Positions 8,904 to 22,468 are shown, numbered from the stretch's first letter. The stretch is DNA of 64,000 bases from Candidatus Undinarchaeales archaeon (GCA_030753015.1 JASMDC010000006.1:32001-96000), one strand, 5' to 3'. Numbers and translations are program-made. Notes: generated by a model from the sequence alone, not told the origin.

Positions 8904-9058
8904 CGGTCGTTACTGCGGGACGTGGATGAATCGCTCTTTTAACGTTTCTCATGGGGTGGGCGAGTGATAAACAAGCGCACGATGAGGGCGCCCCCCCCCT
9001 AACGCAGACCTTCGGCACCGCCGTCATCTTTTTAATACTTCCCGGCCAAACAACGCTC

Positions 9059-10234
9059 ATGAGGTCGGCAGTAATCACCTTGCTGCTCGTTGCACTGCTC
9101 CTTCAACCAGCCCTTGCCATCCCCAGGGCATTGTGGGAGGGTATGGACTGGGGTCGCATCCGACCCCTGTCGGAAGACCCGCAGGACGATCATCGATTCG
9201 GGGACGTGGACATCAAGGCTCTCTACATTACCCACGACAATGAGTACTTGTACATCAAGGTGGACCATCACACACCAGTGCAGCCGACCACCAACTACGA
9301 GTTCGCTCTTGACGTCTTCGAGCCAACGGACGACGTCGTGGGCTACGCAACTAATTTCTTCCCTCGCGGCACGCTGCTCTGGTACGAGACGAAGAACGTG
9401 AACGGGGAGTTCGCACGGGTGCAGGCCCGGCCCGGGGGAGCGGCGATCATGTACCGGGGAACCGAGGTCCAGATCAGGATCCCGCTCAACATCACCAACA
9501 GTAACTATAGATTCAAGGTACAGCTTACTGTTTGGCCCTCCGGCGACTTTGAGGAGGGCTCCGACAGGATGGACAATCCCGAGTGGACCGAGTATCCCCC
9601 GGGAGGAGGGGAAGCAACACCGGTGGCCGTTACGCTCCTTCCTACCGCGACCCCCGCCCCAACGCCCACGCCCGTCCCTGTGTGGCAGGGTGTGAGCTGG
9701 CAAGGGGTCGCCCCGCTGGCCACGGATGCCCAAGGGGACCACGACCTTGGGACCGACCTGCGCTCTCTCTCCATCAAGGAGGACACAGAGTACATCTACC
9801 TCAAGGTCGACCTCCATACCGACAGCAATAATCCGTTCCATATCTACGACATACTGTTCGATACCGACGGTGATGCGCGCGCCGACTACGCTGCTAACAT
9901 CAAGCTGAGCAAGGAGTACCACTTCTACCAGCACGCACCCTCGTTGCGGGAACTGCCCACCGAGGGAATGGCGGTGGTGTTCGGTCGCAATTGGATGCAG
10001 GCACGCATACCCAAGCTCTCGGACCTCAGCGAGTACCGGACAGCGGTGCGTGTATGGCCCGCAGGCACCAATTCACCCCAGGCGGGGGACATGCTATACG
10101 AGACGGGCTGGTCCGAACCTGGTGCCGGTGCTGACAGCGGGGGCGACTCGTCCACCGTCGTCATCATGGGCGTCGTTGTCCTGGTGCTCGCAGTGGCCAT
10201 CATGCTCGGACGCGGGGGCGCACAGCAAGCGTAG
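9059..10234 (+). CDS. Secreted, C-terminally anchored protein with two DOMON-like/carbohydrate-binding-like repeats
   Basis: Signal peptide. Two homologous domains (W.G..W....PL..D.Q.DH..G.D...L.I..D.EY.Y.KVD) separated by a PT linker. C-terminal TM. TTTTTAATA box about 25 nt upstream. Confidence 0.7.
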   Translation: MRSAVITLLLVALLLQPALAIPRALWEGMDWGRIRPLSEDPQDDHRFGDVDIKALYITHDNEYLYIKVDHHTPVQPTTNYEFALDVFEPTDDVVGYATNFFPRGTLLWYETKNVNGEFARVQARPGGAAIMYRGTEVQIRIPLNITNSNYRFKVQLTVWPSGDFEEGSDRMDNPEWTEYPPGGGEATPVAVTLLPTATPAPTPTPVPVWQGVSWQGVAPLATDAQGDHDLGTDLRSLSIKEDTEYIYLKVDLHTDSNNPFHIYDILFDTDGDARADYAANIKLSKEYHFYQHAPSLRELPTEGMAVVFGRNWMQARIPKLSDLSEYRTAVRVWPAGTNSPQAGDMLYETGWSEPGAGADSGGDSSTVVIMGVVVLVLAVAIMLGRGGAQQA

Positions 10235-10243
10235 GGCAACCCC

Positions 10244-11935
10244 ATGGGAGCGCTCGATCCTCTCACGCTCGTCCCCGTCGTGCTCCATCTCCATATCTGG
10301 GCCCTCGCTCTCGTTCTTGTGCTGCTCGTTCGACGCCACCACCGCGATGTGCTCGACCTTCCTCGCGAGGTCCGTAACTGTCTCCTCCTGTTGGTCTTAG
10401 TAGCTGCGGGGCTCCGTCTCAGCAACCTCGAGGCAGCAGCGATAGTGTACTCGGACGAGTTCGAGGTACTGCTCTCGGCCCGCCACATGCTCGTATACAA
10501 TCGGGTGGGCTATCCTCTGAACCTTCGTCTCCTCCCGCCCGCCCACCGGTCAGGCTACCCCGCCCTAACAACTGTCCCCCTCGCTCTCCTGGGCGGGACC
10601 GACCGAGCGGCAGCCCTTGTATCGGCGATCGCGGGAATCCTGGCAGTTCCTCTGACATTTGCGCTTGTACACCTCCTCTTCCGTGATCCGTGGGGGGCGC
10701 TCGCGGCGGCGGCTCTTGTCGCTCTCAGTCCGGAGCACGTACGCTACTCGATCACAGGGTGGAGTGCAGCATCGTCCTTTACCTTAACGCTCCTGGCCCT
10801 GTTTCTTGCGGTCTATTCATCCCGCCGAGGCCGGATTCTTGCATGGACGGTGGCGGCCGCCATCGCGGCAGGTCTTGCCACTCAGGTGCGCACGGCCGAT
10901 ACCGTGGTCGTTCCCGTTATCGCTCTTTACCTCTGGTATGGGACGGGGGCTCGACGAGCGGCTCTCTTCACAGCAGTGGCGCTGGTGCCCTCTCTCCTCC
11001 TCCTCGCTGCTCTCCCGCCGGGTACAGCGCCAGAGGGTGGGCTCCCCTCTCCTTGGGCCGAGGGCGCCTTCGAGGAGTTCTCTTTCGACAAGGTCCTCCA
11101 AGAGGAATCGGACATCGGCACCAAGGGATCGTTGCCAGGTTACCTCCTCCATGTGTTCGCCGGGGTGCGCTACTGGACGCCCGGGCCGCCTGAGCCGTCG
11201 GCCGATCCCATAATCAGGGTGCTGGGGAACCAGCGGGGTGACGTAGATCCGCTGGTCGTGTGGGCCACCCTTCTGGCCGTCTCAGGTGTGGCAGCGCGAC
11301 CACGACGTGGTCATGTCCTTGTGCTGGGTTATGTACTGACGCTCATCGCAGCCAACAGCTTCTTCGCCTCTGATCCACGTCACGTTCTCAACGCAGTGTG
11401 CCTGCTCCCGGTGCTTACCGGGGCCGGTCTCGGTGCACTCGCGAGCTCGTTCCCGGGTGGTGGTCGGACGGCGGCGGCTCTGCTGGTGATACTGCTCCTC
11501 CGGTTCCATACCCAGGGCACGGCCGTGATGCTCCAGCTCCATGCCGGGAAGGCGGGAGCGGCAGCGGGCCCTCTCGACGACCTATTCTTCCAGAACGCAC
11601 GCATCGGCCGATGGCTGGCCGCATCGCCCTTCAGAGACTGCACCGTGATCTCCTCGATCCCGCTGGCCACTGCGTTCTATACCGGTAGCTCTGCTGTGGA
11701 TATCCGTGCGGCCGCCCGTGATGAAAAGCTACGCGATCGTCTCCGCGCGCTCGCGAGGAGCGAGTGCGTGCTCTATCTGGACACCTGCGCGGACTGGGTT
11801 CCGGCGCAGGAGACGGCGACGGTCAGCCGGACGCTGTCCCTCGAGTTGGCGGCCCGGACGGGTACGTGTCGCTCGTGGACCGATCTCGGTACTGAGCGGG
11901 ACGTCATGCTCTACCGGATGCAGTCTGCGTCCTGA
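10244..11935 (+). CDS. ArnT/PMT-like (GT-C fold, GT39/83) membrane glycosyltransferase
   Basis: GLRL...YSDE first-loop acidic motif, GYP, ALSPEHVRYS and about 12 TM segments. Confidence 0.75.
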   Translation: MGALDPLTLVPVVLHLHIWALALVLVLLVRRHHRDVLDLPREVRNCLLLLVLVAAGLRLSNLEAAAIVYSDEFEVLLSARHMLVYNRVGYPLNLRLLPPAHRSGYPALTTVPLALLGGTDRAAALVSAIAGILAVPLTFALVHLLFRDPWGALAAAALVALSPEHVRYSITGWSAASSFTLTLLALFLAVYSSRRGRILAWTVAAAIAAGLATQVRTADTVVVPVIALYLWYGTGARRAALFTAVALVPSLLLLAALPPGTAPEGGLPSPWAEGAFEEFSFDKVLQEESDIGTKGSLPGYLLHVFAGVRYWTPGPPEPSADPIIRVLGNQRGDVDPLVVWATLLAVSGVAARPRRGHVLVLGYVLTLIAANSFFASDPRHVLNAVCLLPVLTGAGLGALASSFPGGGRTAAALLVILLLRFHTQGTAVMLQLHAGKAGAAAGPLDDLFFQNARIGRWLAASPFRDCTVISSIPLATAFYTGSSAVDIRAAARDEKLRDRLRALARSECVLYLDTCADWVPAQETATVSRTLSLELAARTGTCRSWTDLGTERDVMLYRMQSAS

Positions 11936-12648
11936 CATCCCTCAGGAGGACGCCGGAGCACGGCCCACGCATCCACGCCGCCCCCGGCCCACCGCGCAAG
12001 CCGATCATCCAGGGTGAGCATGGAGCACAGGAGCCGGTCCGCGAGGTCACGGGACACCAGCGTGGTCACCCGGTGGATTGCCGCTGCCGCGAACGTGATG
12101 AGGTGTCCGCCGGTACCGGTGGCGATTGGCTCGAGGCCGGCCTCTCGGCTGGCCGCCATTAACTCGTCCACATCGAGGTGGGCCTGCCGTTGCCCCACGC
12201 GATCGAAGTGCCTGACGACGGGTCTGAGGGGCAGGATCACCCGCTCCGGCTGGCGTGACACCAGCACGTAGGCGCGTCCTCCGGGCCGGAGCACACGACG
12301 AACCTCGGTAAACAGAGCCACTGGATCCTTGGTGTATTCAAGCACGTGACTCGACACCGCAAACTGGAAGGAATCATCGGCGAAGGGTAGGCGGAGCATA
12401 TCCCCGAGGACTACCGATCCACCACGCCCGGCAAGCACGCGTGTGCCGGCAGGGGAACGGTCCACGCCCACGCACACCACACCCGTCCGCTCCAGGGCAG
12501 AGCAGAGATAGCCTGTCCCACATCCCACGTCCACGAGGGTGTCCCCCGGTCGCGGGTCGAGCCGGTGGCACACTCGCCACACGAGGGTCGCGTCCCATCG
12601 AGAGCGATGCCTCCATGCGGTGTACTTCTCCTCGAAAGGGCCGGCCAC
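11911..12648 (-). CDS. Class I SAM-dependent methyltransferase
   Basis: LVDVGCGTG, GVDRS, GDMLRLPFADDSF, SHVLEY, EVRRVLRPGG. Start moved to GTG 12648, about 25 nt below a TATAAA box. Confidence 0.85.
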   Translation of the reverse strand: MAGPFEEKYTAWRHRSRWDATLVWRVCHRLDPRPGDTLVDVGCGTGYLCSALERTGVVCVGVDRSPAGTRVLAGRGGSVVLGDMLRLPFADDSFQFAVSSHVLEYTKDPVALFTEVRRVLRPGGRAYVLVSRQPERVILPLRPVVRHFDRVGQRQAHLDVDELMAASREAGLEPIATGTGGHLITFAAAAIHRVTTLVSRDLADRLLCSMLTLDDRLARWAGGGVDAWAVLRRPPEGCQDADCIR

Positions 12649-12661
12649 GTCAGGAGGGGAC

Positions 12662-12682
12662 GGAAATGCTTTATATGCCTTC
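12662..12682 (+). repeat. 21-bp direct repeat, copy 1 (GGAAATGCTTTATATGCCTTC), contains a TATA box
   Basis: Exact match to 14145-14165; flanking bases differ on both sides. Confidence 0.95.
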
Positions 12683-12764
12683 ATAGTCGGATTGCTTCAT
12701 GCCAGGGGTCCGGGCCGTTCGATCATCGCCAAGGTACGATGGCGGCGGCATCCTCCCTCCCATC

Positions 12765-13916
12765 TCACGAGCTTAGACGCCGCTCAATCCCCTCCCTCAG
12801 AGCATCGGCGACCATCTGGTGGGCCCTGGCGTTAGGATGGTGATCTAGGGGATGCACCCACAGCGTTGAGGCCGTACTGTTCTCGAACACAGGTAGCAGG
12901 TCGATTACCTCGATCCCACGCTCACGGCAGGATGAGGCAATCAGCTCGTGAACATCCCTGAACGGGTAATCATCGAGCTGATGAATGAGGGGAAAGATTA
13001 CGACCATGAACGTGATGTTCTGGCTTTTACTGTATCTTGCCATCTGGTCGATCGATCTCACCGTCCACTTCTTCCACCGCATATTTCTTTCTCCGAGGTA
13101 GAAGGAGCGGTACCATTCCTCGACGACATGTGTATCGCGACGGCTCTCACTCCTCTTTTGGATAAGGTCGTACAGCACGCTGCCCGGGCCTTCGCCCCCT
13201 TCTCCCTTTGGGATCGAGTAGATAAGGTCGTCACCTTTCATTAGGATGGACTCTCGGTTGGTGATGGGATCATCCAGCACAAAACCCAGGATGACCATGT
13301 TCGGCTTGATCAATGGCGCGAGCTTCATCAGCAGACCAGTCTTCTGGTAGACCGTGTATCCTGGGATGCCTGCATTGATCACCTGATTTATCCTACCTGG
13401 AGGGACATTCTCTTCTAGCCCCTCTTCAAGCCTTGCGGGAAAGCTCTCCTCTAACGCGACGCCCTCACCGAAGGTGAACGAGTCACCGATGACGAGAATC
13501 CTATAGGCATCCCCCCCATCGGCGAGGGTACGCTCGGGACCTCGCAATCCCCAGGAGTTGACAAGATAGGTTATCCGGAGGTCGGGTGGGAGGGTGTTAT
13601 AGGGATCGCTGTCGTATATATGAACGAAGCTGCTGTTTGGGATTAGTTCGTACCCGAGCCCGTATTTTGTGGTGCTCCGTAGTGATATGGTCTCCTGCTT
13701 GGGCTCGAGTGGAGCATTGAACAACCGGGCCCCGAGCTCAAGGACGAGGAGGGTGACCACGATGCTGGCCAGGGTCAGGATCAGACGGTTCAGGTACTTC
13801 TCACGGCCCAGCTGGTTCGAGGCGTTCCTTTCAGATTCCATCGGTGATCGGCTCCATGGGGGGGCCTGAAGGGACCTAGCGTCCCTGGAAGACGTACCAA
13901 TCAGGCCATATAACAA
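12765..13916 (-). CDS. Membrane-anchored SGNH/GDSL hydrolase (AlgX/AlgJ-like acyl esterase or transferase); start may be 13841
   Basis: LELGARL anchor, NSWGLRG, block I IGDSFTFGEGV, block II VINAGIPGY and block V DHHPNARAH. Confidence 0.85.
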   Translation of the reverse strand: MLYGLIGTSSRDARSLQAPPWSRSPMESERNASNQLGREKYLNRLILTLASIVVTLLVLELGARLFNAPLEPKQETISLRSTTKYGLGYELIPNSSFVHIYDSDPYNTLPPDLRITYLVNSWGLRGPERTLADGGDAYRILVIGDSFTFGEGVALEESFPARLEEGLEENVPPGRINQVINAGIPGYTVYQKTGLLMKLAPLIKPNMVILGFVLDDPITNRESILMKGDDLIYSIPKGEGGEGPGSVLYDLIQKRSESRRDTHVVEEWYRSFYLGERNMRWKKWTVRSIDQMARYSKSQNITFMVVIFPLIHQLDDYPFRDVHELIASSCRERGIEVIDLLPVFENSTASTLWVHPLDHHPNARAHQMVADALREGIERRLSS

Positions 13917-14144
13917 ATGTTTTGCGGCATGCTATATATGGTTTTTCTTCCGAGGTGCTTCATCTCGAAACTCATCAATCGGTAGCCCGAGTTCGTCCTA
14001 ATAACCGATGGAACCACCACCGTAGTGCTTTGGTGATACCTCAACGGATAGACCAAAGAAGAGGATACGACCGAGGATAAAGAACCGAGTGAACCGGGGA
14101 AATCACAGCTCAAACACGGTACTTTAGGGATGAAGTCACGTGGT

Positions 14145-14165
14145 GGAAATGCTTTATATGCCTTC
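14145..14165 (+). repeat. 21-bp direct repeat, copy 2; probable promoter of 14183..16018
   Basis: Exact match to 12662-12682. TTTATA (14153-14158) lies 25-30 nt before the GTG start at 14183. Confidence 0.95.
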
Positions 14166-14182
14166 GCCGACAGGAGCAACCC

Positions 14183-16018
14183 GTGCGTCGAACAACCGTG
14201 TACCGCGGCCTTTGGGCAATGCTGTTTCTGGCAGCCCTGCTCCGTCTCCCGGCCCTCGACCACAGCCCTCCGGGCCTCACCTTCGACGAGGCCTCCATCG
14301 GGTACGACGCGTGGTCACTGCTCCTCACAGGTCGCGACCACCGCGGGAATCCATGGCCCGTGTACCTTGAGTCCTTCGGCGATTACAAAGACCCGGTGAA
14401 CGTTTATGCCACCATGCCGCTAGTAGCTGTGGTCGGGCTCTCCACGGCTTCGGTCCGCGCGGTCTCAGCACTGTTCGGGATCGCGGGAGTGGCGGCCACG
14501 TACCTGCTTGCGCGGCGTCTCCTAGGACCCCGGGAAGCACGTGTGGCGGCCCTGCTCCTGGCAGTGTGCCCATGGCACGTCCACTTCAGCCGCCTTGCAC
14601 TGGAGCCGGTGCTCCTGCCCTTCTGGACGGCGCTCTCATTGTACCTCCTCATGGGTAAAGGGCGGGAACTAGTGCTTGCAGGGCCAGCTCTGGCACTTGG
14701 GATGTACTCCTACGCTGTAGGGAAGGCCTTTCTCCCACTCCTCGCCTGCGCCGTGCTCGTACTCCGCCGCCGTGAGCTCGCGGGCCAAAAGCGCTATCTC
14801 ATGGCAGGTGTGTTGGCAGCGGCCCTGCTCCTTGCGCCGCTCGTCAGGCTTCACGTCACACATCCTGACCGGGCGGGCGCTCGAATAGGGATGCTATCGA
14901 TCGCATCCGACGAGGTCGTCAGGCTCGACATGGCGCGATTCGGTACGACCTCGCCGCTCGTGGCCACGACGTTCCGCTTCCTGCGTAATTATTCACTCCA
15001 TATAATGCCCTCATTCCTTTTCTTTTCAGGAGATCCCGATCCACTCAACGGCCTTCCCGGGCGTGGCCTCTTGGAACCGGTGACCGCTGTGCTTGCACTC
15101 CTGGGGCTCGGTATCGCCTTACGTGAGCGACGGTGGGCACTTGTGGCGTGGCTCATCATCTTCCCCGTGGCCGGCGCTGCCACGGACATAGAGGTGGCGC
15201 AGGCACGTAGAGCGATCGCCCTCCTACCTCTCCCCCATCTGCTCGCGGCCCATGCTCTCGGCGTATTACGGCGCCGCCATGGCGATAAAGTGGTACTCAT
15301 ACTTGCCTGTCTTCTAGCGCTCTCCTTCGCTACGGTCCAGGCCGAGCGGCTCGTCGACTACCCTGCCGACCCCGATGTGGCACTGGCCACAGGAGAGCCA
15401 CTCCGGAAGGCCCTGGCTGCCATTACACCGGGGACGTCCCTGGCCATTGATCCCGTTATCGAGAACGCCTATGTCCAAGTGCTCTTCCATCGACGCGTAC
15501 TGCCTGATCAGTACTTGTCTAGGGGATGGGATGGGGCCGGGCTCTCCTTCAAGCGGCCCCCACTACCCAAAGGGACCATGCTGCTCACAACCGGAGGCCC
15601 CTTTGCCGTAAGCATAACCGATGTGGACGTACTGGGCCGCACCTGTGGTACGCTCCCCGACGTGTCCCCTTTCGAAGTGGTCGCGGCCCCCGGCGAGCTC
15701 AATATGTCCGTTACTCTGGACCTCCCGGATATCTGTCGGGAGATGGGATTCGAGCTGGACCGGGGTACGACGGGGGTGCTCGAAGTGAGGTTCTTACCCG
15801 TGGAGGGCGGAACGTGCAAGCGACCCTGTGCTGGCCAGTATCGGTCCCTCATCAGTCTCAGCGTACCACCTGGCGAGTACCTTGTTAGAGCATTCTTTGG
15901 CGAAATCCGCCTTGGTGAACGACGGGTGACAGTACTCCCCGCACGACCTCGTGGTAGGACCAAGGTCGCGTTCACTCTGCCTGATGGCTCGGTCGCGCTT
16001 TGGCTCGTGCAACCCTAA
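14183..16018 (+). CDS. ArnT/PMT-like (GT-C fold, GT39/83) membrane glycosyltransferase with C-terminal extracellular domain
   Basis: LRL..L...PPGLTFDEASIGYDAWSLLLTGRDHRG, GDYK, PWHVHFSR and multiple TM helices. Confidence 0.85.
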   Translation: MRRTTVYRGLWAMLFLAALLRLPALDHSPPGLTFDEASIGYDAWSLLLTGRDHRGNPWPVYLESFGDYKDPVNVYATMPLVAVVGLSTASVRAVSALFGIAGVAATYLLARRLLGPREARVAALLLAVCPWHVHFSRLALEPVLLPFWTALSLYLLMGKGRELVLAGPALALGMYSYAVGKAFLPLLACAVLVLRRRELAGQKRYLMAGVLAAALLLAPLVRLHVTHPDRAGARIGMLSIASDEVVRLDMARFGTTSPLVATTFRFLRNYSLHIMPSFLFFSGDPDPLNGLPGRGLLEPVTAVLALLGLGIALRERRWALVAWLIIFPVAGAATDIEVAQARRAIALLPLPHLLAAHALGVLRRRHGDKVVLILACLLALSFATVQAERLVDYPADPDVALATGEPLRKALAAITPGTSLAIDPVIENAYVQVLFHRRVLPDQYLSRGWDGAGLSFKRPPLPKGTMLLTTGGPFAVSITDVDVLGRTCGTLPDVSPFEVVAAPGELNMSVTLDLPDICREMGFELDRGTTGVLEVRFLPVEGGTCKRPCAGQYRSLISLSVPPGEYLVRAFFGEIRLGERRVTVLPARPRGRTKVAFTLPDGSVALWLVQP

Positions 16019-16021
16019 GGC

Positions 16022-17473
16022 TCACTCGGGAACGAACCGACGCGCCAGCCGCCTCTCCCAAAGATGGTCGAAGTACATACGTCCCACCCTGGCGCGTGCC
16101 AGGGGCCGGTAGAGCCTGGCCAGCGCTGCCACCGCGGGATTCATGGCCAGCTGCCCGGAACCGACGTCCAGGAACATCGAGAGGAACGACAGCCCCTCGA
16201 GAACGTGGCGCTCATCCTCCCCCACCCACGGAACTACCACATGGTCGGCGGACACATCGGCCCAGTGGGCCAGGGAGTCGGGCGGATCGAAACCCCGGGA
16301 AACCGCCTCCTCGTAGAGGACCGTTCCCGGATAAGGGACGAAGATGAAGGCACCCGGTACACGAGCACGGGGATTGTCACCAAGGAGCTTGAACATGAGG
16401 TCGACAGTGGCACGTAGATCCTCAGTTCCCTCGTCCGGGAACCCGCACATGAAGTTGTACACAGGAGCTATATCAGAGCCAACCAGACGACGGTTCACGG
16501 CCATGACGTCCTCTACCCGGATGTCCTTGAGCACTCGGTCCAGCACCGGCTGGGAGCCTGATTCGACACCGAAGTTGAGCTGGCGGCATCCGCTTCGCTC
16601 CAGCAGACGCAGGTCCTCGTCGTTAAGGGCCATGATGGACTCCACCCGGATTCCCTGGGCCTCCCAGATGACGTCGAGCCCCTCGTCGGCCAGGAGGCGG
16701 GCGAAACGTCGGACGCGACCGAGGTTTGCGAACAGGTTCTCGTCCTCGAACCGTACGTTCCCGATGCCGAACCGTTCGGACACGTACCGCACCCGGTCCA
16801 CCATGCGCTCGGCGCTCTGGCCTCGCCAACGCCGACGGTTGTACACGGTGTTATAGCAGAATGCACATCGATGGGGGCAGCCTCGGGAGCTTTCCATGAT
16901 CATCGCGCGTCTTCCTAGGCGGATAGGTGCGTACCGCTCCACGTCCACAAGGTGATAGGGCAGCTCGGGCTGGGCATCGAGTACCACGAGAGGTCGGTCG
17001 GGGGCGTGTACGGGGCGTCCGTCCCTGACCGTCGACACACCCGCCACCCGTTGTACTGGACGGCCATCGCGGAGTGCAGCCAGGAGCGCAGGGAGGGTCT
17101 CTTCTCCCTCACCACGGACGACCATGTCGATGCGTGGATCGGCCAGGGCCAGCTCGGGGAGCATGGTCCCCAAGACACCGCCCAGGACGAAGGGCACGTC
17201 CGCCGCCTCCTTCTTGACAACGCTGGCGGCCTCCAGCATATGGGCCACGGGTCGCCCGGCCATGGCCGTAGAACCGACGAGCAGTGGTCCTGATGCAATC
17301 TCGCGTCGGAGAGTCTCCTCCCATCGCGGATCGGTGCGCTGGTCGATGATGGTCACGTCGAAATCGGCTACTGCACGGGAACAGGCATGGAGCAGGGCCA
17401 GGGGGAGGCTGAAGGGGGACACTACCTCGTCAACGAACCCGATGCGGGGCTGGACGAGGACTAGGTCGGCCAT
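16022..17473 (-). CDS. Cobalamin-binding (class B-type) radical SAM protein
   Basis: B12 domain (LPLALL...IIDQR...VLGGV...VVRGEGE), SSRGCPHRCAFCY, FEDENL, FGVESGS, GFPDE, PYPGT. ATG at 17473. Confidence 0.9.
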   Translation of the reverse strand: MADLVLVQPRIGFVDEVVSPFSLPLALLHACSRAVADFDVTIIDQRTDPRWEETLRREIASGPLLVGSTAMAGRPVAHMLEAASVVKKEAADVPFVLGGVLGTMLPELALADPRIDMVVRGEGEETLPALLAALRDGRPVQRVAGVSTVRDGRPVHAPDRPLVVLDAQPELPYHLVDVERYAPIRLGRRAMIMESSRGCPHRCAFCYNTVYNRRRWRGQSAERMVDRVRYVSERFGIGNVRFEDENLFANLGRVRRFARLLADEGLDVIWEAQGIRVESIMALNDEDLRLLERSGCRQLNFGVESGSQPVLDRVLKDIRVEDVMAVNRRLVGSDIAPVYNFMCGFPDEGTEDLRATVDLMFKLLGDNPRARVPGAFIFVPYPGTVLYEEAVSRGFDPPDSLAHWADVSADHVVVPWVGEDERHVLEGLSFLSMFLDVGSGQLAMNPAVAALARLYRPLARARVGRMYFDHLWERRLARRFVPE

Positions 17474-17524
17474 CGCTCGAGGGTTATACCGTACCCTATT
17501 AATGTTTTCTGCGCAAGTCCATGG

Positions 17525-18898
17525 ATGATGCAGCGGGTCAAGGAGACCGAGTCCGTGTGTCCGCGGTGCTTGCACCGCATCCCTGCCGTCGTGGACGAGG
17601 AGGGCGGGCGGGTGCTCATGCGCAAGACATGCCCGGACCACGGGCCCATCACGGTCGTACTTTCCTCGCGCTCCTGGTACTATCTAGGCCTCGCTGATTT
17701 CTATCGAGGCCTTGCAATCGGCGGGAAGAAGGAAGAGCTGGAGTACAACTTCTACGTCACCATGCGCTGCAACATCAATTGTCCCATCTGCTTTACCAAT
17801 GCCAACGTCACAAAGTACGCTGATCCCTCTCTTGAGGATGTGGGGGCGATGATCAAGGACATGCATGGTGTCCGCCTATGCCTCTTCGGCGGTGAGCCCA
17901 CGGTGCGCAAGGACCTGCCGGACATCATCCGTCTCATCCTTCGATCGGGCAATATCCCCGTGCTCTATACCAACGGTATCAAACTAGAGGACTGTGCCTA
18001 TCTGGAGGAGCTCAGGGATGCGGGGCTTGAGGAGGTCCACCTCCAGTTCGACGGTTTTGAGGAGCGTGTCTACAAGGTGCTCCGCGGCAAGCCCATGGTC
18101 GCCTCCAAGACCAAGGCCCTGGAGAACCTCGAGGCCCTGGGGATCCCTACGGTGCTCGAGTACACCGTGGCCCACGACCTCAACGAGGACCAGATGGTGC
18201 CCACGTTCGAGTACTGCATCCCGCGACCGCACATTCGGGGGCTGTTCTTCCGCTCCTATGTTGTCATGGGCAAGGCCGGGCTCGAGCACGCCAGCTCGGT
18301 GGCAATCGAAGATATGATCGATCGGTTCGACGAATCCACGGGAGGGCGCATCTCGCTGAGGAGCGTGTTCGAGCTCCAACGGCTACTATATGCTTTCTAC
18401 AAGCTGGTGCACCTGCGACGATGTCACTACAGCCAGTACACGTTCATGTACCGCACACCTGGTGGTGGCTACAAACTGGTGAACGAGCTGTTCGACGTCC
18501 ATGGCATCCAGACGGCTTTGGACGCCTTCCGTCACAGGATCCGTGAGGGCTCGCTCCTGGCGATCCCGCTGTTCCTTGCACAGGTCGCGCGGCGCGCGGC
18601 CCATCCGCGCTCACTGAGGTTCATCCGTGATGCCCTGTCGGTGATGACGGGCAAGCTCGTCAAGCACGAGATGTTCTCCTATGGTGAGTCTGGAGTGTCG
18701 GACCGGCTCTTCATCGTTGGATTCGGCGCTATGTGCGAGCCCTACTCGTTCGATTTCCAAGTAGCCGATGCCTGTGATCGGCTCCAACTCACTGATGAAG
18801 GTACACAGATGATGCCCTACGCCCACCTTGAACTCGAGCGGCGAAGCCTTGAGGCCCGGGAGAATCCAGAGGAGGGGATATGGCTCTCCTGCGGGTGA
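17525..18898 (+). CDS. Tes/MJ0619-like radical SAM protein, copy 1
   Basis: N-terminal TESVCPRC...KTCPDHG metal site, CNINCPIC radical SAM motif, GGEPTVR, TNG, LQFDG, RG, and a C-terminal xCEPYSFD....C segment. Confidence 0.8.
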   Translation: MMQRVKETESVCPRCLHRIPAVVDEEGGRVLMRKTCPDHGPITVVLSSRSWYYLGLADFYRGLAIGGKKEELEYNFYVTMRCNINCPICFTNANVTKYADPSLEDVGAMIKDMHGVRLCLFGGEPTVRKDLPDIIRLILRSGNIPVLYTNGIKLEDCAYLEELRDAGLEEVHLQFDGFEERVYKVLRGKPMVASKTKALENLEALGIPTVLEYTVAHDLNEDQMVPTFEYCIPRPHIRGLFFRSYVVMGKAGLEHASSVAIEDMIDRFDESTGGRISLRSVFELQRLLYAFYKLVHLRRCHYSQYTFMYRTPGGGYKLVNELFDVHGIQTALDAFRHRIREGSLLAIPLFLAQVARRAAHPRSLRFIRDALSVMTGKLVKHEMFSYGESGVSDRLFIVGFGAMCEPYSFDFQVADACDRLQLTDEGTQMMPYAHLELERRSLEARENPEEGIWLSCG

Positions 18899-20208
18899 CC
18901 CTGGGTACCTGCCCCACCTGCCTCGCGGCGGTGCCGGCATCGCTTGTGCTGGAGGACGGGATGGTGCATCTGGTCAAACACTGCCCGGAGCATGGGGATA
19001 CCAGCACTCTTGTGGCCAAGGACGGTCCCGCGTGGGCCGAACTGGCCGCCTTCTACGAGGAGATGATGGCGCCTCTGCCCGGTATAGGTGACAAGAACCT
19101 GAACCTTCCACTCACGGACCGGTGCAATCTTGCCTGTCCTATCTGCTTCACCCGCTCTGGACCACGTCGCGGGGATGAGCGGGAGCCTTCTCCCGGTGAC
19201 GTCGCGCGGCTGCTTGCGGGCGTCACCGGGGCCAAGGTCCAGCTCTATGGCGGTGAGCCCACGGTCCGCAACGACCTACCGGACATCGTGACCGCGGTCA
19301 TCGCCTCCGGGAACGTGCCCGTGCTGGCCACGAACGGCCTCCTCCTGGCCGAGGAGGGTGTGCTGGACGAACTGCGTGCAGCAGGCCTGGGTGAGGTCCA
19401 TATCCAGCTCGATGGTCTATCCGGGCAGGGTGACAATACCCTCCGGGGCAGGGACGTGTCAGCGGTAAAACGCAAGGCTCTGGAAGCTCTGGAGAAGGCT
19501 GGCATGCCCACAGGCCTGGAGTGCACGTTGGCCCGCGATGTGAACGACGGAGCAGTTGCAGAGCTTCTGACCTACGCGCTGGACCATCACTTCGTACGTG
19601 GTGTGTTCTTCCGCTCCTACGGCCATCTTGGGATTGCCGGGCTCGGTCCGACGGCGCGGCTACGGGTCGAGGAGGTCGTGTCCATGGTTGCGGACGCCTC
19701 TAACGGACGTATTACTCCCGCGGGCTGGACCACCGTCCAGAAGGCGCTCTACGCTGCGTTCAACCTCCTGGGTGTCCCCAGCTGCCTGTACAACCAGTTC
19801 TACCCTGTGCTCCGCCGTCCCGATGGCACGTGGACTGCTGCCGAAGAGCTTGTCGACGTGGAAGGGCTAGATGACGCGCTGGAAAGGTTCCGTGTCACCC
19901 GCCATCGCTTGAGATGGGGGGCCGCCGCTCAGCTGGCCACCGAGGTGTTGCCGCTTGTGCGGGAGCCGGGTCTCGTACGCACCCTCCTATCCGCTGCGGT
20001 CCAGCCACTGGCAGGAGTAGGACCCTTGGATACCCTGGCCACGCCCGGTCTATTGGTAGTTGGCGCTGGCTCGTTGTGTGATCCCGACACCTTCGATCTG
20101 ACCTATTCACTACGGTGCGATGCAGGGCTGGTGGTGCGCGATGGTGAGCCATGGCTCACCCAATCCCTGGACACCCTTCGGGAGGAGCGGCGGCATGGTG
20201 AGGGCTAG
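18880..20208 (+). CDS. Tes/MJ0619-like radical SAM protein, copy 2
   Basis: TLGTCPTC...KHCPEHG, CNLACPIC, GGEPTVRNDLPDI, IQLDG, and C-terminal LCDPDTFD....C. Colinear paralogue of 17525..18898. Confidence 0.8.
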   Translation: MALLRVTLGTCPTCLAAVPASLVLEDGMVHLVKHCPEHGDTSTLVAKDGPAWAELAAFYEEMMAPLPGIGDKNLNLPLTDRCNLACPICFTRSGPRRGDEREPSPGDVARLLAGVTGAKVQLYGGEPTVRNDLPDIVTAVIASGNVPVLATNGLLLAEEGVLDELRAAGLGEVHIQLDGLSGQGDNTLRGRDVSAVKRKALEALEKAGMPTGLECTLARDVNDGAVAELLTYALDHHFVRGVFFRSYGHLGIAGLGPTARLRVEEVVSMVADASNGRITPAGWTTVQKALYAAFNLLGVPSCLYNQFYPVLRRPDGTWTAAEELVDVEGLDDALERFRVTRHRLRWGAAAQLATEVLPLVREPGLVRTLLSAAVQPLAGVGPLDTLATPGLLVVGAGSLCDPDTFDLTYSLRCDAGLVVRDGEPWLTQSLDTLREERRHGEG

Positions 20209-21022
20209 TAATAAAAGCGTGGTCCTCCGACCACGGCCTGTGCCCGGGACCGATCACCTCCATGCCGTGCTGCTCATCGCATCGCTCATCATCGTCGCGA
20301 CCGTGTTCCTTGGGCCGACCGTCGTTACAGTGGAGGACACTCGTCCTACCAGGGCCAAGGACCCAGGTGCTCGACTGTCGGTCGAGGGCCCGCCGTCTCC
20401 AGGTGTCGAGGTAGGGCCGCCCGCGCCCACGACCTCATCAGGCCCCGAGGGGCCACCCGTACCGATGCCTACGGTGGCTATAGCCACAACCACAGTTGAT
20501 CCAGATCTACCCGAGGTCATCGGACCGGTAGTGGCAGGATGGGCACCCGTCCCATCGGAGCAGGTGCCCCCGGCGCGACCCACCACCGTCCGGCTGCTTC
20601 CGCCCCGCGGCCCCGATTGGTTGATGGTCCTTGTAACTCGAGAGGCCGTGGAACCCTGCGATGAATGCCTGAGCGTTGACACCGTCAATATCGACGAGGA
20701 GTTCACCATCACGATAAAGGGTCCGGACGAGCCCGTGGTGCCCGAGTACAACCTCACGATCAACATCCCCATACCCCCGGGTTGGTGTGTGCGGACCCTC
20801 AAGGTGAAACTGTGCACCCTCCGCGACGACGGGACCGAGGGACGCTGCTCATCCTTCCAGAACGTCCCTGAGGAAATGGTGGATGGGAACATGTTGCAGT
20901 TCGACACAGAATTGCCTGCGACCATCAACACAGCCCTGGACTTCCGGTGTGATAAGAACGATGGCAGCACGACACAAGTGACCGTTGCAGTGCTACCCCG
21001 TTGGGGCGCGGACAACGCGTAG
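20195..21022 (+). CDS. Hypothetical membrane-anchored Pro-rich protein with C-terminal Cys-containing beta domain
   Basis: ATG at 20195 after GGAGG. One TM, a long Pro/Thr linker, and six Cys in the C-terminal domain. Confidence 0.6.
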   Translation: MVRASNKSVVLRPRPVPGTDHLHAVLLIASLIIVATVFLGPTVVTVEDTRPTRAKDPGARLSVEGPPSPGVEVGPPAPTTSSGPEGPPVPMPTVAIATTTVDPDLPEVIGPVVAGWAPVPSEQVPPARPTTVRLLPPRGPDWLMVLVTREAVEPCDECLSVDTVNIDEEFTITIKGPDEPVVPEYNLTINIPIPPGWCVRTLKVKLCTLRDDGTEGRCSSFQNVPEEMVDGNMLQFDTELPATINTALDFRCDKNDGSTTQVTVAVLPRWGADNA

Positions 21023-21054
21023 GTTTTATTTAGGATGGGCACGACTCGGTATTC

Positions 21055-21588
21055 GTGGCGCCTCTCTCTTGGCTGATCGACCTCGTGCTGCGTACGATGT
21101 GGGTGTTCCTGCCTGCCATGATGGCCAACCAGATGCCTCTTCTTGCTCGCGGCATCCCTGTCCTGGACGTCCCCGTGGACGGTGGGAGGATGTGGCGTGA
21201 CGGTGGGCGGCTCCTTGGTGACCATAAGACCCTGAGGGGACTTATCTTGGGAGTGCTCGGTGGGGTGGTCACGGCCCTGGCCCAGGCGTCGGTCCCGGTC
21301 CCCTCACGTTATGTCATGGCGCTGGGGGTCAATCCTATCCTTGTCGGGGCAACGCTCGGGGCAGGGGCTCTGATCGGCGACATCATCGAGAGCTTCGTGA
21401 AACGAAGAAAGGGGGTACCTCCGGGCGAGGACTGGTTCCCATTCGACCAGCTGGACGCTGCGTTCGGAGCGTTGGCCGCCATCTGGCTGTTAGCTCCAAT
21501 CCCGTACGATGTGGCCGTGTGCTTCCTTGTCCTTGCGGTACCGCTGCACGTGGGGACCAACCGAGTGGCTATTAGACTCGGATGGTAG
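21055..21588 (+). CDS. carS: CDP-archaeol synthase (DUF46)
   Basis: FLPAMMAN..P, PVDGG....DG.RLLGDHKT.RG, GALIGDIIESFVKRR.G..PG, FDQLD and LH..TN motifs. Confidence 0.9.
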   Translation: MAPLSWLIDLVLRTMWVFLPAMMANQMPLLARGIPVLDVPVDGGRMWRDGGRLLGDHKTLRGLILGVLGGVVTALAQASVPVPSRYVMALGVNPILVGATLGAGALIGDIIESFVKRRKGVPPGEDWFPFDQLDAAFGALAAIWLLAPIPYDVAVCFLVLAVPLHVGTNRVAIRLGW

Positions 21589-22468
21589 GGGCGGGAGCTA
21601 ACTCCTCGTACCTGATCAGGTCCCGCGTGAGGAGATTGAACTCCAGATCGTTGAACGCCGACGGATTGAGAGAGATAATCAGCAACGCCTTGTGCAAGGC
21701 CACCTGGTCTACCAGATACTGAAGGAACTTGAGGACTGGACGGGAGCCCGCGTGGGTGCTCAGGTATTCAAGTCCGCTGAGGAGGATGATGCTCTGCTCG
21801 TACTTGCCGAAGATGTCGGTGCGTATCATGTCCGAAAGCATATGGAGGTTGTCCGTTGCGAGGATATCGTCGCTGTGCTCGGTATGGGTCAGCCACACAA
21901 GGGGGGTCTTTTGTAGGTTGAACTCCTCGCGTATGTGTTCGGGATAGATGCGGGTGATGGCCAGTCCGTGGAATCCGTGGTGGAGATGATCAGCAAAGAT
22001 ATTGAGCCCTAACTCGTTCCGACGCTCCTCGATGTAGTACGCTCGGCCGAGCTCCAGGGTGAAGGCCGGCTCCGTGGGCGTTTCCTCCTCCAAAGGGGCG
22101 TCCACATGGATCGGCGCTAGCTCGCTGGGTACGCCCAGCTCCTCGATGTGCCACGTGATCTCAATAATGCGGTGTGAACACTCATCGAGCCCGCAGCCTT
22201 TGAGTATCTCACTGATCATCCGCGTGATGAACTGGTCGATCTCAGCATAGCTTACCTTGTACTGGGGATAGAGATGGAGCACGAGGGTGCCGCTCTCATG
22301 CACGCTCTTCACGTCAACCACGATGCGCTCGTCGGCGCCTTCCCGGCTTTCGTACCCATCAAAACCGTTGACAAGGGAGAGGAGCTCTTCCCTGGTGAGA
22401 GGGTGCTTTCCCTCGATGGCGAGGGTCACGTCCATGGGGCTGGAGATGATGACGCTCATGATACTCAC
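21572..22468 (-). CDS. DUF835-domain protein
   Basis: C-terminal GLAITRIYPE.IR....L.KTP.VWLT...IILL.GLEYL....G...VLKFL..L.D pattern. Confidence 0.75.
   Translation of the reverse strand: MSIMSVIISSPMDVTLAIEGKHPLTREELLSLVNGFDGYESREGADERIVVDVKSVHESGTLVLHLYPQYKVSYAEIDQFITRMISEILKGCGLDECSHRIIEITWHIEELGVPSELAPIHVDAPLEEETPTEPAFTLELGRAYYIEERRNELGLNIFADHLHHGFHGLAITRIYPEHIREEFNLQKTPLVWLTHTEHSDDILATDNLHMLSDMIRTDIFGKYEQSIILLSGLEYLSTHAGSRPVLKFLQYLVDQVALHKALLIISLNPSAFNDLEFNLLTRDLIRYEELAPAPTIRV

What the first reader, a model, noticed from the sequence alone, without database searches (positions are those of the whole stretch)
16022..21588. Candidate new archaeal lipid-tailoring locus: tandem divergent Tes-like radical SAMs, a cobalamin radical SAM and carS
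Seen: two overlapping, colinear radical SAM paralogues carry the CxxC...CPxHG N-terminal metal site and GGEPT/LQFDG core of the tetraether synthase (Tes/GDGT-MAS, MJ0619) family. They are divergent, across a 51-bp gap, from a B12-binding radical SAM, and CDP-archaeol synthase lies two genes downstream. Known: Tes makes the GDGT C-C bond, and B12-domain radical SAMs include GDGT ring synthases and lipid methylases. Inference: this may be an undescribed isoprenoid-lipid or glycolipid modification module, possibly a heterodimeric Tes-like enzyme, with the adjacent GT-C glycosyltransferases supplying head groups. Tes-like genes also occur in glycan loci unrelated to GDGT, so the substrate is unproven.
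Basis: partly seen in the sequence, partly recalled or inferred. Interest (0 to 1): 0.8.

Follow-up and report, generated by a model that had tools for sequence, protein, structure and literature searches.

The report
Stripped-down Tes-fold radical SAM pair
Two tandem iron-sulfur enzymes that fold like the archaeal tetraether-lipid synthase belong to a large unstudied side branch of that family that usually sits in cell-surface sugar operons, so here they more likely tailor a lipid-anchored surface glycan than build membrane-spanning lipids.

Summary
T1 models onto GDGT-MAS/Tes over its whole length (TM 0.80). T1 and T2 are still not Tes. They score 160 and 127 bits against a cut-off of 450, they lack the N-terminal [4Fe-4S] motif, their C-terminal cluster ligands differ, and they fall in a separate clade ("X"). 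The genome holds seven such paralogues and no canonical Tes. In 24 metagenomic clade-X loci the same-strand neighbours are B12 radical SAMs (7 loci), further X copies (7), DegT sugar aminotransferases (6), U32 proteins (6) and GT2 (3). None holds carS. Canonical tes, in contrast, does sit beside carS (6 of 56 non-X loci; 4 of 20 genomes). The window's carS is a divergent extra paralogue; the syntenic orthologue lies on another contig. Best reading (0.4): a module that tailors a lipid-anchored surface glycoconjugate. The lipid-tail reading (0.2) is not excluded. Interest is moderate.

The parts
8951..10234 (+). Surface protein ('fam2'): signal peptide, two repeats, Pro/Thr linker, C-terminal TM anchor. 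It is a possible glycosylation target. A paralogue sits directly upstream of another clade-X cassette on contig C55.
   Evidence: No Pfam match. Sequence and hydropathy. Paralogue C55:10816-12525. Atlas lead to an SLH-like Glucodextran_C module at 0.87, which is a lead only.
10244..11935 (+). GT-C glycosyltransferase (PMT_2), about 8 TM segments
   Evidence: PF13231, 30.7 bits; hydropathy
11911..12684 (-). Class I SAM methyltransferase
   Evidence: PF08241, 78.5 bits; 69% identical in G001
12765..13916 (-). GDSL/SGNH hydrolase or acyltransferase; a variable member that is missing in the sister genome
   Evidence: PF13472, 45 bits; no match in G001 synteny
14183..16018 (+). GT-C glycosyltransferase (PMT_2; weak Agl23-like match), convergent with the B12-rSAM
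   Evidence: PF13231, 51.8 bits; TIGR03663, 39 bits against a cut-off of 126
16022..17473 (-). Cobalamin-binding (class B) radical SAM enzyme of an unnamed, mostly bacterial family
   Evidence: PF02310 and PF04055. The best NCBIfam hits are far below their cut-offs: ApyD 143 of 750, BchE 129 of 481, HpnJ 111 of 578. 412 homologues at E<=1e-30, all with generic names.
17474..17524 (.). 51-bp divergent intergenic region with AT-rich stretches (possible TATA boxes; inference only)
   Evidence: Sequence read
17525..18898 (+). T1: clade-X Tes-fold radical SAM. It has the rubredoxin-like CX2C..CX2H site, CX3CX2C, and C300/C404/C417, and has no [4Fe-4S]N motif.
   Evidence: 100%-identical contigs from RNA libraries lie inside it.
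18880..20208 (+). T2: second clade-X paralogue. It is 35% identical to T1, overlaps it by 19 bp, and keeps all cluster cysteines.
20195..21022 (+). Membrane-anchored, Pro/Thr-rich, Cys-containing extracytoplasmic protein of unknown family. Its start overlaps the T2 stop by 14 bp and follows a GGAGG-like motif.
   Evidence: 76% identical in G001; no Pfam or Atlas match
21055..21588 (+). CarS2: divergent extra CDP-archaeol-synthase-family paralogue, 33 bp after the previous gene
   Evidence: PF01864, 108 bits. NF003114, 144.3 bits against a cut-off of 148. The other copy (C26) scores 165.6. Synteny and identity. 29 of 37 conserved positions are kept. PDB 5GUF, 64 bits.

Best explanation
T1 and T2 are two members of a large, uncharacterised side branch ('clade X') of the Tes/GDGT-MAS-fold radical SAM superfamily. 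They keep the rubredoxin-like iron site, the radical SAM cluster and a three-cysteine C-terminal auxiliary cluster in a hydrophobic C-terminal domain. They lack the N-terminal [4Fe-4S] domain. Together with the divergently transcribed B12-radical SAM they form a tailoring module for a lipid-anchored cell-envelope glycoconjugate, either an isoprenoid-phosphate-linked sugar or a glycolipid. The flanking GT-C transferases would then deliver this product to surface proteins or lipids. The co-oriented extra CarS paralogue would supply or re-activate the CDP-linked isoprenoid lipid for this pathway. Shown: the fold, the motif set, the clade placement, the neighbourhood statistics, and the paralogue status of carS. 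Inferred: the substrate class, the chemistry (H-abstraction followed by cluster-assisted C-C or C-X bond formation, with methylation or rearrangement by the B12 enzyme), and co-transcription. This module is not a GDGT synthase.
For: Fold: the AF2 model has pLDDT 90.5. Foldseek gives 7TOM/7TOL at TM 0.80/0.79 over about 490 columns, and the next hit, MoaA, at 0.37. Clade: all 7 paralogues of this genome plus 19 metagenome proteins form one group (SH-like 99; SH-aLRT 92-96). This group is split from Tes+TrsS+bacterial Tes-like by a branch with support 98. The profile search found 150 best representatives at 248 bits or more, and 146 of them lack the N-aux motif. Context of 24 metagenomic clade-X loci, counting same-strand contiguous genes: B12-rSAM 7, second X copy 7, DegT 6, U32 6, small rSAM 5, FAD oxidoreductase 4, MiaB-like 4, GT2 3, flippase-like LPG_synthase_TM 2, GNAT 2. 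Among 55 canonical-Tes loci the counts were B12 1, Tes-family 2, and none of the sugar categories (Pfam names). Local context: two PMT_2 GT-C genes, a methyltransferase, an SGNH gene and surface proteins with Pro/Thr linkers. Other paralogous loci carry carbamoyltransferases, a glycoside hydrolase and flippase-like genes. Lipid anchor: the C-terminal domain hydropathy is 0.03 for X, -0.13 for Tes and -0.49 for TrsS. CarS2 is a genus-specific extra copy in the same tightly packed gene string.
Against: No member of clade X has been characterised, so the substrate is inferred from neighbours only. The seven loci of this genome hold no DegT or GT2 within 20 kb, so the sugar signal comes from other organisms. 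Three of the DegT-bearing loci (L084, L086, L089) are near-duplicates. The queries for the neighbour categories were taken from these same loci, which favours finding them there. A dedicated CarS paralogue fits a core-lipid pathway at least as well as a glycan pathway. The hydropathy comparison is crude. Gene order is conserved only in one sister genome that is 76-94% identical, which is too close to be informative.
Confidence: 0.4

Rival explanations
1. One reading: the trio plus CarS2 is a membrane core-lipid tailoring module. T1/T2 couple or cross-link isoprenoid tails in the manner of Tes (macrocyclic archaeol, tetraether or a new linkage). The B12 enzyme methylates, cyclises or desaturates them. 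CarS2 activates the modified archaetidic acid.
For: T1 has the Tes fold over its whole length and a C-terminal domain as hydrophobic as that of Tes. The genome makes archaeal lipids: it has GGGPS, three GGR-family genes, four CDP-alcohol transferases and two CarS genes. It has no Tes over the cut-off at 98.9% completeness. Canonical tes is divergently adjacent to carS in 4 of 20 genomes with Tes and in 6 of 56 non-X metagenome loci. Here a dedicated CarS paralogue shares the gene string. Several known lipid-tailoring enzymes are B12-rSAMs (abstract of 10.1101/2025.10.20.683597; review outline).
Against: T1 and T2 lack the [4Fe-4S]N domain found in 20 of 21 Tes, 8 of 8 TrsS and all 40 bacterial Tes-like rows that carry a full-length Zn-ribbon. 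One of the three universal C-terminal Cys, and the Met that is invariant in Tes, are replaced by a clade-specific Cys. Clade X occurs in Omnitrophota and Woesearchaeota-labelled records and in sugar operons. Homologues of the B12 enzyme are mostly bacterial with generic names. carS is next to 0 of 24 clade-X loci elsewhere.
Confidence: 0.2
2. T1, T2 and the B12 enzyme tailor a soluble nucleotide sugar (C-methylation, deoxygenation, C-C extension) for a surface glycan. The carS gene is an unrelated neighbour that happens to lie downstream.
For: DegT aminotransferases, which act on NDP-keto-sugars, lie in the same operons as X in 6 of 24 loci, together with GNAT, FAD oxidoreductase/GLF-like and WbqC genes. 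The nearest solved relatives of the B12 enzyme include the aminoglycoside enzyme AprD4, though only weakly at 46 bits. The carS linkage is seen in one genus only.
Against: The Tes-like hydrophobic C-terminal domain is retained. Nucleotide-sugar genes were not found near any of the seven loci of this genome with the queries used. CarS2 is an extra, fast-evolving copy (79-80% identical between the two genomes, against 91% for CarS1) that lies 33 bp after the preceding gene. This is unusual for a housekeeping neighbour.
Confidence: 0.25
3. The radical SAMs modify a protein or peptide. Candidates are the secreted repeat protein (fam2) or the membrane-anchored protein encoded between T2 and carS.
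For: On contig C55 the order is fam2 paralogue, small SPASM-like rSAM, clade-X rSAM, with overlapping ends. In the window a secreted-protein gene sits inside the T1-T2-carS string. The best NCBIfam hit of the B12 enzyme is a RiPP enzyme, ApyD, but at 143 bits against a cut-off of 750.
Against: No short precursor-like gene fits the 51-bp gap. The metagenomic operons carry sugar genes and show no recurring peptide or protease-transporter set. The candidate substrates are large exported proteins.
Confidence: 0.05

Closest known systems
Tetraether lipid synthase Tes / GDGT-MAS (MJ0619; PDB 7TOL, 7TOM; NCBIfam NF045702)
   Same: The overall four-part fold minus one domain (TM 0.80). The rubredoxin-like CX2C...CX2H site, the CX3CX2C radical SAM cluster and the GGEPT/QFDG core are shared. 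Two of the three C-terminal cluster cysteines align. The C-terminal domain is hydrophobic.
   Different: There is no [4Fe-4S]N motif (CPxxCGxCxxH). The third universal Cys, and the Met invariant in Tes (the candidate labile ligand; residue numbering not verified here), are absent, and a clade-specific Cys (C404 in T1) stands nearby. The conserved Tyr of YLQFDG is His in 81% of the clade. HMM scores are 160 and 127 against a cut-off of 450. The clade is separate. The gene context is sugar operons.
Radical SAM (seleno)protein TrsS (NCBIfam NF045646)
   Same: It is the best-scoring NCBIfam model (181 and 162 bits) and has a similar length of about 440 aa.
   Different: The cut-off of 490 is not reached. 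All 8 bona fide TrsS sequences carry the N-aux motif and extra cysteines, form their own clade (support 99) and have a polar C-terminal region.
Three-component lipid-linked glycosylation of the Arn type (ArnB DegT, ArnC GT2, flippase, ArnT GT-C); named from my own knowledge
   Same: Clade-X operons elsewhere combine DegT, GT2, a flippase-like membrane protein and GT-C/PMT_2 or DUF2079. The window has two PMT_2 GT-C genes.
   Different: No radical SAM enzymes are known in the Arn pathway. The window itself has no DegT or GT2. The product and the acceptor are unknown.
CDP-archaeol synthase CarS (PDB 5GUF; NF003114)
   Same: The fold family and 29 of 37 highly conserved positions are shared, including the Asp, Lys-Arg-Arg, His and Asn positions.
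   Different: It scores just under the equivalog cut-off (144.3 against 148). It is a second copy seen only in this genus among 41 genomes. It is not in the conserved carS synteny. It differs at G57H, G112E, R123P, L130F, F135A and Y173I, and its C-terminus is shorter.

Membership tests
Tes / GDGT-MAS (NF045702) | Score at or above the curated equivalog cut-off (450 bits) | tested here: not met
   T1 scores 159.7 and T2 127.0 bits. The best of all 7 paralogues by six-frame search is 123.5 bits. 21 loci from other archaea score 564-767 bits.
Tes / GDGT-MAS (NF045702) | Rubredoxin-like CX2C...CX2H iron site | tested here: met
   PF23545 scores 62 and 54 bits. C12, C15, C36 and H39 are at least 90% conserved in the clade.
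Tes / GDGT-MAS (NF045702) | N-terminal auxiliary [4Fe-4S]N ligated by C73, C77, C80 and a His (passages of PMC9433317) | tested here: not met
   The motif CPxxCGxCxxH is absent in T1, T2 and all 26 clade-X rows. It is present in 20 of 21 Tes and 8 of 8 TrsS rows.
Tes / GDGT-MAS (NF045702) | C-terminal [4Fe-4S]C with three Cys and a labile Met | tested here: inconclusive
   C300 and C417 align with universally conserved Cys. The third universal Cys and the invariant Met-His of Tes are missing. A clade-specific invariant C404 lies three residues away. Three Cys remain, so a cluster is plausible, but it was not shown.
Tes / GDGT-MAS (NF045702) | Overall fold including the C-terminal lipid-pocket domain | tested here: met
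   Foldseek TM 0.80 and 0.79 to 7TOM and 7TOL over about 490 columns. No coordinates were available, so the pocket was not inspected.
Tes / GDGT-MAS (NF045702) | Placement inside the Tes clade | tested here: not met
   Clade X is separate. Tes, TrsS and the bacterial Tes-like proteins share a branch with support 98 that excludes X. The root is unreliable because one long outgroup row was misplaced.
Tes / GDGT-MAS (NF045702) | Forms biphytanyl C-C bonds (GDGT or macrocyclic archaeol) | not testable with these tools
   This needs expression and lipid LC-MS.
TrsS (NF045646) | Score at or above the cut-off (490 bits) and placement in the TrsS clade | tested here: not met
   Scores are 181.3 and 162.1 bits. 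The TrsS clade (support 99) excludes them.
Class B (cobalamin-binding) radical SAM | N-terminal B12-binding domain plus a radical SAM core with CX3CX2C | tested here: met
   PF02310 scores 56 bits and PF04055 77 bits. The CPHRCAFC motif is in the translation.
Lipid B12-rSAMs (GrsA/B, Gmm, GDGT methylases, Ted, HpnP/R) | Orthology to a characterised lipid-tailoring B12-rSAM | tested here: inconclusive
   HpnR scores 55 of 650, HpnJ 111 of 578 and the ladderane B12 model 91 of 360 bits, all far below cut-off. No reference sequences for Grs, Gmm or Ted could be fetched, so no tree was made.
CDP-archaeol synthase CarS (NF003114, PF01864) | Equivalog cut-off, conserved residues and orthologous position | tested here: inconclusive
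   The Pfam domain is met (108 against 22 bits). The equivalog cut-off is narrowly missed (144.3 against 148), while the C26 copy scores 165.6. 29 of 37 conserved positions are kept. The carS synteny of relatives matches the C26 copy in 4 of 10 relatives' loci, and all 10 are more identical to C26. A tree placed the window copy weakly with the class (support 88, long branch).
Bacterial membrane-spanning lipid synthase Mss | Same domain architecture as Thermotoga Mss | tested here: inconclusive
   PF23545, which T1 and T2 carry, finds nothing in the Thermotoga maritima control genome. The paper calls Tes only remotely related to Mss (passages of PMC13159169). No Mss sequence was compared directly.

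The most novel reading that the evidence does not exclude
In an archaeon that makes archaeol lipids but has no canonical Tes, the T1-T2 pair with its own CarS paralogue and a B12 partner makes a new kind of tail-modified or membrane-spanning isoprenoid lipid or glycolipid. It would use a two-cluster Tes-fold enzyme that works without the N-terminal [4Fe-4S] domain. If so, Tes-HMM surveys would miss a whole class of such lipid producers.
Probability: 0.15. Interest if true: 0.85.

Novelty: new variant of a known kind. Interest (0 to 1): 0.55.

Why it matters
Presence of a Tes homologue is used to predict which microbes make GDGT or brGDGT lipids for palaeoclimate proxies (passages of PMC8941075 and PMC11868695). 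This locus shows that a large branch of Tes-fold enzymes lacks one metal-cluster domain and lives in surface-sugar operons of bacteria and small-genome archaea. The branch holds at least 146 clusters at 50% identity. Loose homology thresholds could therefore miscount lipid producers. For enzymology, the branch offers a natural minimal Tes scaffold. It could be used to test what the N-terminal cluster is for, and whether cluster-assisted C-C coupling is used outside lipid tails. The dedicated CarS paralogue gives a concrete handle for testing a link between isoprenoid-lipid activation and surface glycan tailoring.

Tried and rejected
- Complex prediction on T1+T2 with alignments gave no verdict (score 0.00). 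The heterodimer idea remains open.
- The Atlas search of the 275-aa protein found nothing usable. The Atlas search of fam2 gave only a sub-threshold lead.
- A first split of the metagenome loci by a strict motif put 8 loci in an 'other' group with DegT in 6. Seven of these proved to be canonical Tes of one lineage with an HPxDCGLCPxH variant motif and a convergent, non-operonic DegT. I did not count them as support.
- The CarS tree placed the window copy with the class relatives (support 88, long branch). I set this aside in favour of synteny, identity and HMM score.
- RNA-library contigs (two runs of one study) lie inside T1, fam2, a GT-C gene, the GDSL gene and the 579-aa gene. They say nothing on operon structure, and the uncovered genes are not evidence of silence.
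- Literature searches found no paper on this branch or on TrsS function.
- The outgroup rooting was unreliable because one long row fell inside clade X.
- I considered and rejected contamination as an explanation: the same gene order lies on a 182-kb contig of the sister genome.

Full report
WHAT IS THERE

The window is G000:C84:32001-96000 of a 3.85-Mb, 117-contig assembly (98.9% complete, 5% contamination). The ORF list and translations and Pfam/NCBIfam scans give the following gene string:
- 8951-10234 (+): a secreted repeat protein.
- 10244-11935 (+): GT-C/PMT_2.
- 11911-12684 (-): SAM methyltransferase.
- 12765-13916 (-): GDSL/SGNH.
- 14183-16018 (+): GT-C/PMT_2.
- 16022-17473 (-): B12-binding radical SAM.
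- 51-bp gap.
- 17525-18898 (+): T1.
- 18880-20208 (+): T2.
- 20195-21022 (+): a membrane-anchored Pro/Thr-rich protein.
- 21055-21588 (+): a CarS-family protein.
- 21572-22468 (-): a DUF835 protein, convergent.

T1 and T2 overlap by 19 bp. The next gene starts 14 bp before the T2 stop, behind a GGAGG-like motif. The CarS gene follows after 33 bp. The only corrections are that LQFDG holds for T1 alone (T2 reads IQLDG) and that the 51-bp gap depends on the Met at 17473. Homologue lengths and the sister genome support that start.

ARE T1 AND T2 TES?

Both carry PF23545 (the MJ0619-type Zn ribbon) and PF04055. Their best NCBIfam models are TrsS (181 and 162 bits, cut-off 490) and Tes (160 and 127 bits, cut-off 450), so they reach neither.

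An AlphaFold2 model of T1 (24-row alignment, pLDDT 90.5) matches GDGT-MAS 7TOM/7TOL with TM 0.80/0.79 over about 490 columns. The next hit, MoaA, has TM 0.37. The fold is therefore Tes-like along the whole length.

Passages of the GDGT-MAS paper (PMC9433317) and section 2.1 of a 2026 review (PMC13459092) define four metal sites:
- a rubredoxin-like Fe (CX2C...CX2H);
- [4Fe-4S]N (C73, C77, C80, His);
- the radical SAM cluster;
- [4Fe-4S]C (three Cys and a labile Met), on which the first substrate radical is parked.

A motif scan of 129 family members finds the N-cluster motif CPxxCGxCxxH in 20 of 21 Tes loci that pass the Tes cut-off, in 8 of 8 TrsS loci that pass theirs, and in the bacterial Tes-like group. 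None of the 26 proteins that cluster with T1 and T2 has it.

In the C-terminal domain, T1 C300 and C417 align with cysteines conserved in every group. The third universal Cys, and a Met invariant in 27 of 27 Tes and 8 of 8 TrsS rows, are missing. A clade-specific invariant Cys (C404) lies three residues from that Met position. I did not verify that this Met is Met439.

Trees place all seven paralogues of this genome and 19 metagenome proteins in one group (FastTree SH-like 99; IQ-TREE SH-aLRT 92-96). A branch with support 98 unites Tes, TrsS and the bacterial Tes-like proteins and excludes this group. The rooting is unreliable. I call the group clade X. A profile search of 1.84 billion representatives lists 150 proteins at 248 bits or more, and 146 of them lack the N-cluster motif. 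The branch is therefore large.

THE GENOME

G000 has exactly seven PF23545 genes and none over the Tes cut-off. All seven are kept in the one same-genus genome, G001, whose record is titled Candidatus Undinarchaeota archaeon. The other 15 genomes of the phylum held here are 0.6-1.2 Mb. None has a clade-X gene above 220 bits.

G000 encodes GGGPS, three GGR-family proteins and four CDP-alcohol transferases, so it makes archaeal lipids itself.

The other clade-X loci of G000 hold the following:
- C57: a 44%-identical copy of the B12 enzyme with a carbamoyltransferase and a glycoside hydrolase.
- C29: a carbamoyltransferase and flippase-like genes.
- C55 and C28: a small SPASM-like rSAM.
- C32: a U32 protein.

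CONTEXT ELSEWHERE

A metagenome scan with the clade alignment returned 80 loci. Of these, 24 (236 kb) carry clade-X genes and 56 carry N-cluster-bearing Tes or other forms.

I named the neighbours in four long loci by Pfam:
- DegT/DnrJ aminotransferases: L082, L084 (two copies), L091.
- GT2: L078, L084.
- LPG_synthase_TM flippase-like proteins: L078, L082.
- WbqC: L078.
- PMT_2: L084.
- DUF2079: L091.
- GNAT: L091.
- FAD amine-oxidase/GLF-like: L082, L091.
- MiaB-like rSAMs: L084, L085.

I then used these proteins and the window's proteins as phmmer queries and counted genes in the same-strand contiguous run around the central gene.
- Clade X, 24 loci: B12-rSAM 7, second Tes-family gene 7, DegT 6, U32 6, small rSAM 5, FAD oxidoreductase 4, MiaB-like 4, GT2 3, flippase-like 2, GNAT 2, CarS 0.
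- Canonical Tes, 55 loci: B12-rSAM 1, Tes-family 2, none of the sugar categories.
- Anywhere in the locus: B12-rSAM in 9 of 24 X loci against 2 of 56 others; CarS in 0 of 24 against 6 of 56.

There are three caveats. L084, L086 and L089 are near-duplicates. The queries came from the X loci themselves. Many contigs are short.

Earlier AI notes of this scan describe the same stripped-down Tes branch in an Omnitrophota glycan island and similar cassettes in a Woesearchaeota locus. They agree with my counts but are not independent evidence.

THE CARS GENE

Among 41 genomes, only G000 and G001 have two CarS-family genes. The copy on contig C26 passes the equivalog cut-off (165.6 against 148), while the window copy just misses it (144.3).

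In 4 of 10 class relatives examined (G003, G005, G007, G009), carS is flanked by homologues of the two genes that follow the C26 copy. In all 10, carS is more identical to the C26 copy (40-50%) than to the window copy (30-39%).

A quick tree put the window copy with the class relatives on a long branch (support 88). I give this less weight than synteny, identity and HMM score.

The window copy keeps 29 of 37 strongly conserved positions, including the acidic, KRR, His and Asn positions, so it is probably active. It differs at six positions and at the C-terminus. It evolves faster between G000 and G001 (79-80% identical) than CarS1 (91%) or T1, T2 and the B12 enzyme (91-94%). It is therefore a specialised extra paralogue.

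Separately, canonical tes lies divergently next to carS in G018, G024, G029 and G040 (4 of the 20 genomes with Tes over the cut-off) and in six metagenome loci. A Tes-family/CarS pairing thus has precedent, but only for true Tes.

INTERPRETATION

The clade-wide signal is sugar and glycan tailoring. The local signal is GT-C transferases, surface proteins with Pro/Thr linkers and a dedicated CarS paralogue. The enzyme keeps a Tes-like C-terminal domain whose mean hydropathy (0.03) is at least that of Tes (-0.13) and unlike that of TrsS (-0.49).

The reading that fits all three signals is that clade-X enzymes act on lipid-anchored intermediates of a surface glycoconjugate pathway. The B12 enzyme would add a methylation or rearrangement step, and CarS2 would provide the CDP-activated isoprenoid lipid (confidence 0.4).

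The rivals are:
- soluble nucleotide-sugar tailoring with an incidental carS (0.25);
- protein modification (0.05).

T1 appears in two RNA libraries of one study as 100%-identical contigs. This is a weak hint of expression only.

COMPARISON WITH PRINT

- Zeng et al. (PMC8941075; passages) report Tes homologues in DPANN and bacteria at BLAST thresholds, without splitting off this branch.
- Sahonero-Canavesi et al. (PMC13159169; passages) describe Mss as only remotely related to Tes. PF23545 does not ring in Thermotoga maritima.
- The 2026 review lists Tes, Mss, Gms, Grs, Gmm, Cds, the Hpn enzymes, Jaw5 and ladderane enzymes as the known lipid rSAMs (outline).
- Garcia et al. 2025 add GDGT methylases and a desaturase (abstract).

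None of my six literature searches found a description of an N-cluster-less Tes branch or of TrsS function. Supplementary tables, which I could not open, may already list members of the branch as Tes or Mss homologues.

VERDICT

This is a new variant of a known enzyme kind with an unknown substrate. Interest is 0.55.

Noticed in passing
whole genome G000 (window = C84:32001-96000): The assembly is 3.85 Mb (98.9% complete, 5% contamination) and its one congener is 3.6 Mb. All 15 other genomes of the phylum held here are 0.6-1.2 Mb. The congener's record is titled Candidatus Undinarchaeota. A large-genome lineage with full lipid genes inside a small-genome DPANN group deserves its own look.
   Followed up: partly
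G018:C1:499984-502095; G029:C1:1288674-1290677; G024:C17:7819-10459; G040:C26:5297-8793; loci L113, L121, L124, L130, L138, L151: Canonical tes (over the NF045702 cut-off) lies divergently next to carS in 4 of 20 genomes with Tes and in 6 of 56 non-clade-X metagenome loci. I did not find this recurrent gene pair mentioned in the passages I read.
   Followed up: partly
L076, L079, L081, L082, L093; G000:C32:53195-56577: A recurring three-gene cassette: a clade-X rSAM, a peptidase-U32-family protein, and a 260-280-aa protein with no Pfam match. It was seen in 5 metagenome loci and on contig C32 of this genome. U32 alone follows X in 6-7 of 24 loci.
   Followed up: partly
G000, genome-wide: The genome is very rich in radical SAM enzymes. 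There are 28 BLAST hits to the B12-rSAM at E<=1e-10 (query gene included) and 41 six-frame matches to the Tes model, including clusters of several rSAM genes on contigs C40, C29 and C30.
   Followed up: no
window 12765-14263: The GDSL/SGNH gene and the small ORF after it are missing from the otherwise collinear locus of the sister genome, so this part of the island is variable.
   Followed up: partly
G000:C55:10816-12525: The three-repeat paralogue of the window's surface protein ends in a C-terminal TM segment followed by a long lysine-rich tail with runs of K. It is encoded directly upstream of a small rSAM and a clade-X rSAM, with overlapping ends.
   Followed up: no
L104, L109, L112, L117, L119, L128, L132: One lineage of canonical-length Tes proteins has His in place of the first Cys of the N-cluster motif (HPxDCGLCPxH). 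It shares a fixed gene order with a convergent DegT gene two genes downstream, seen in 6 of the 7 loci; L112 ends just after the Tes gene.
   Followed up: partly
L041 (G089:C25:9623-10969); L042 (G070:C2:5832898-5834172): One bona fide TrsS match holds an in-frame TGA, as expected for a selenoprotein form. Another holds an in-frame TAA, which is unexplained.
   Followed up: no
window 21572-24204: Downstream, on the minus strand, lie a DUF835 protein (94% identical in the sister genome) and a 579-aa protein. The latter has a charged coiled-coil-like N-terminus, one TM segment and a Cys-rich outer part with no family match. G000 has 7 DUF835-like ORFs.
   Followed up: no
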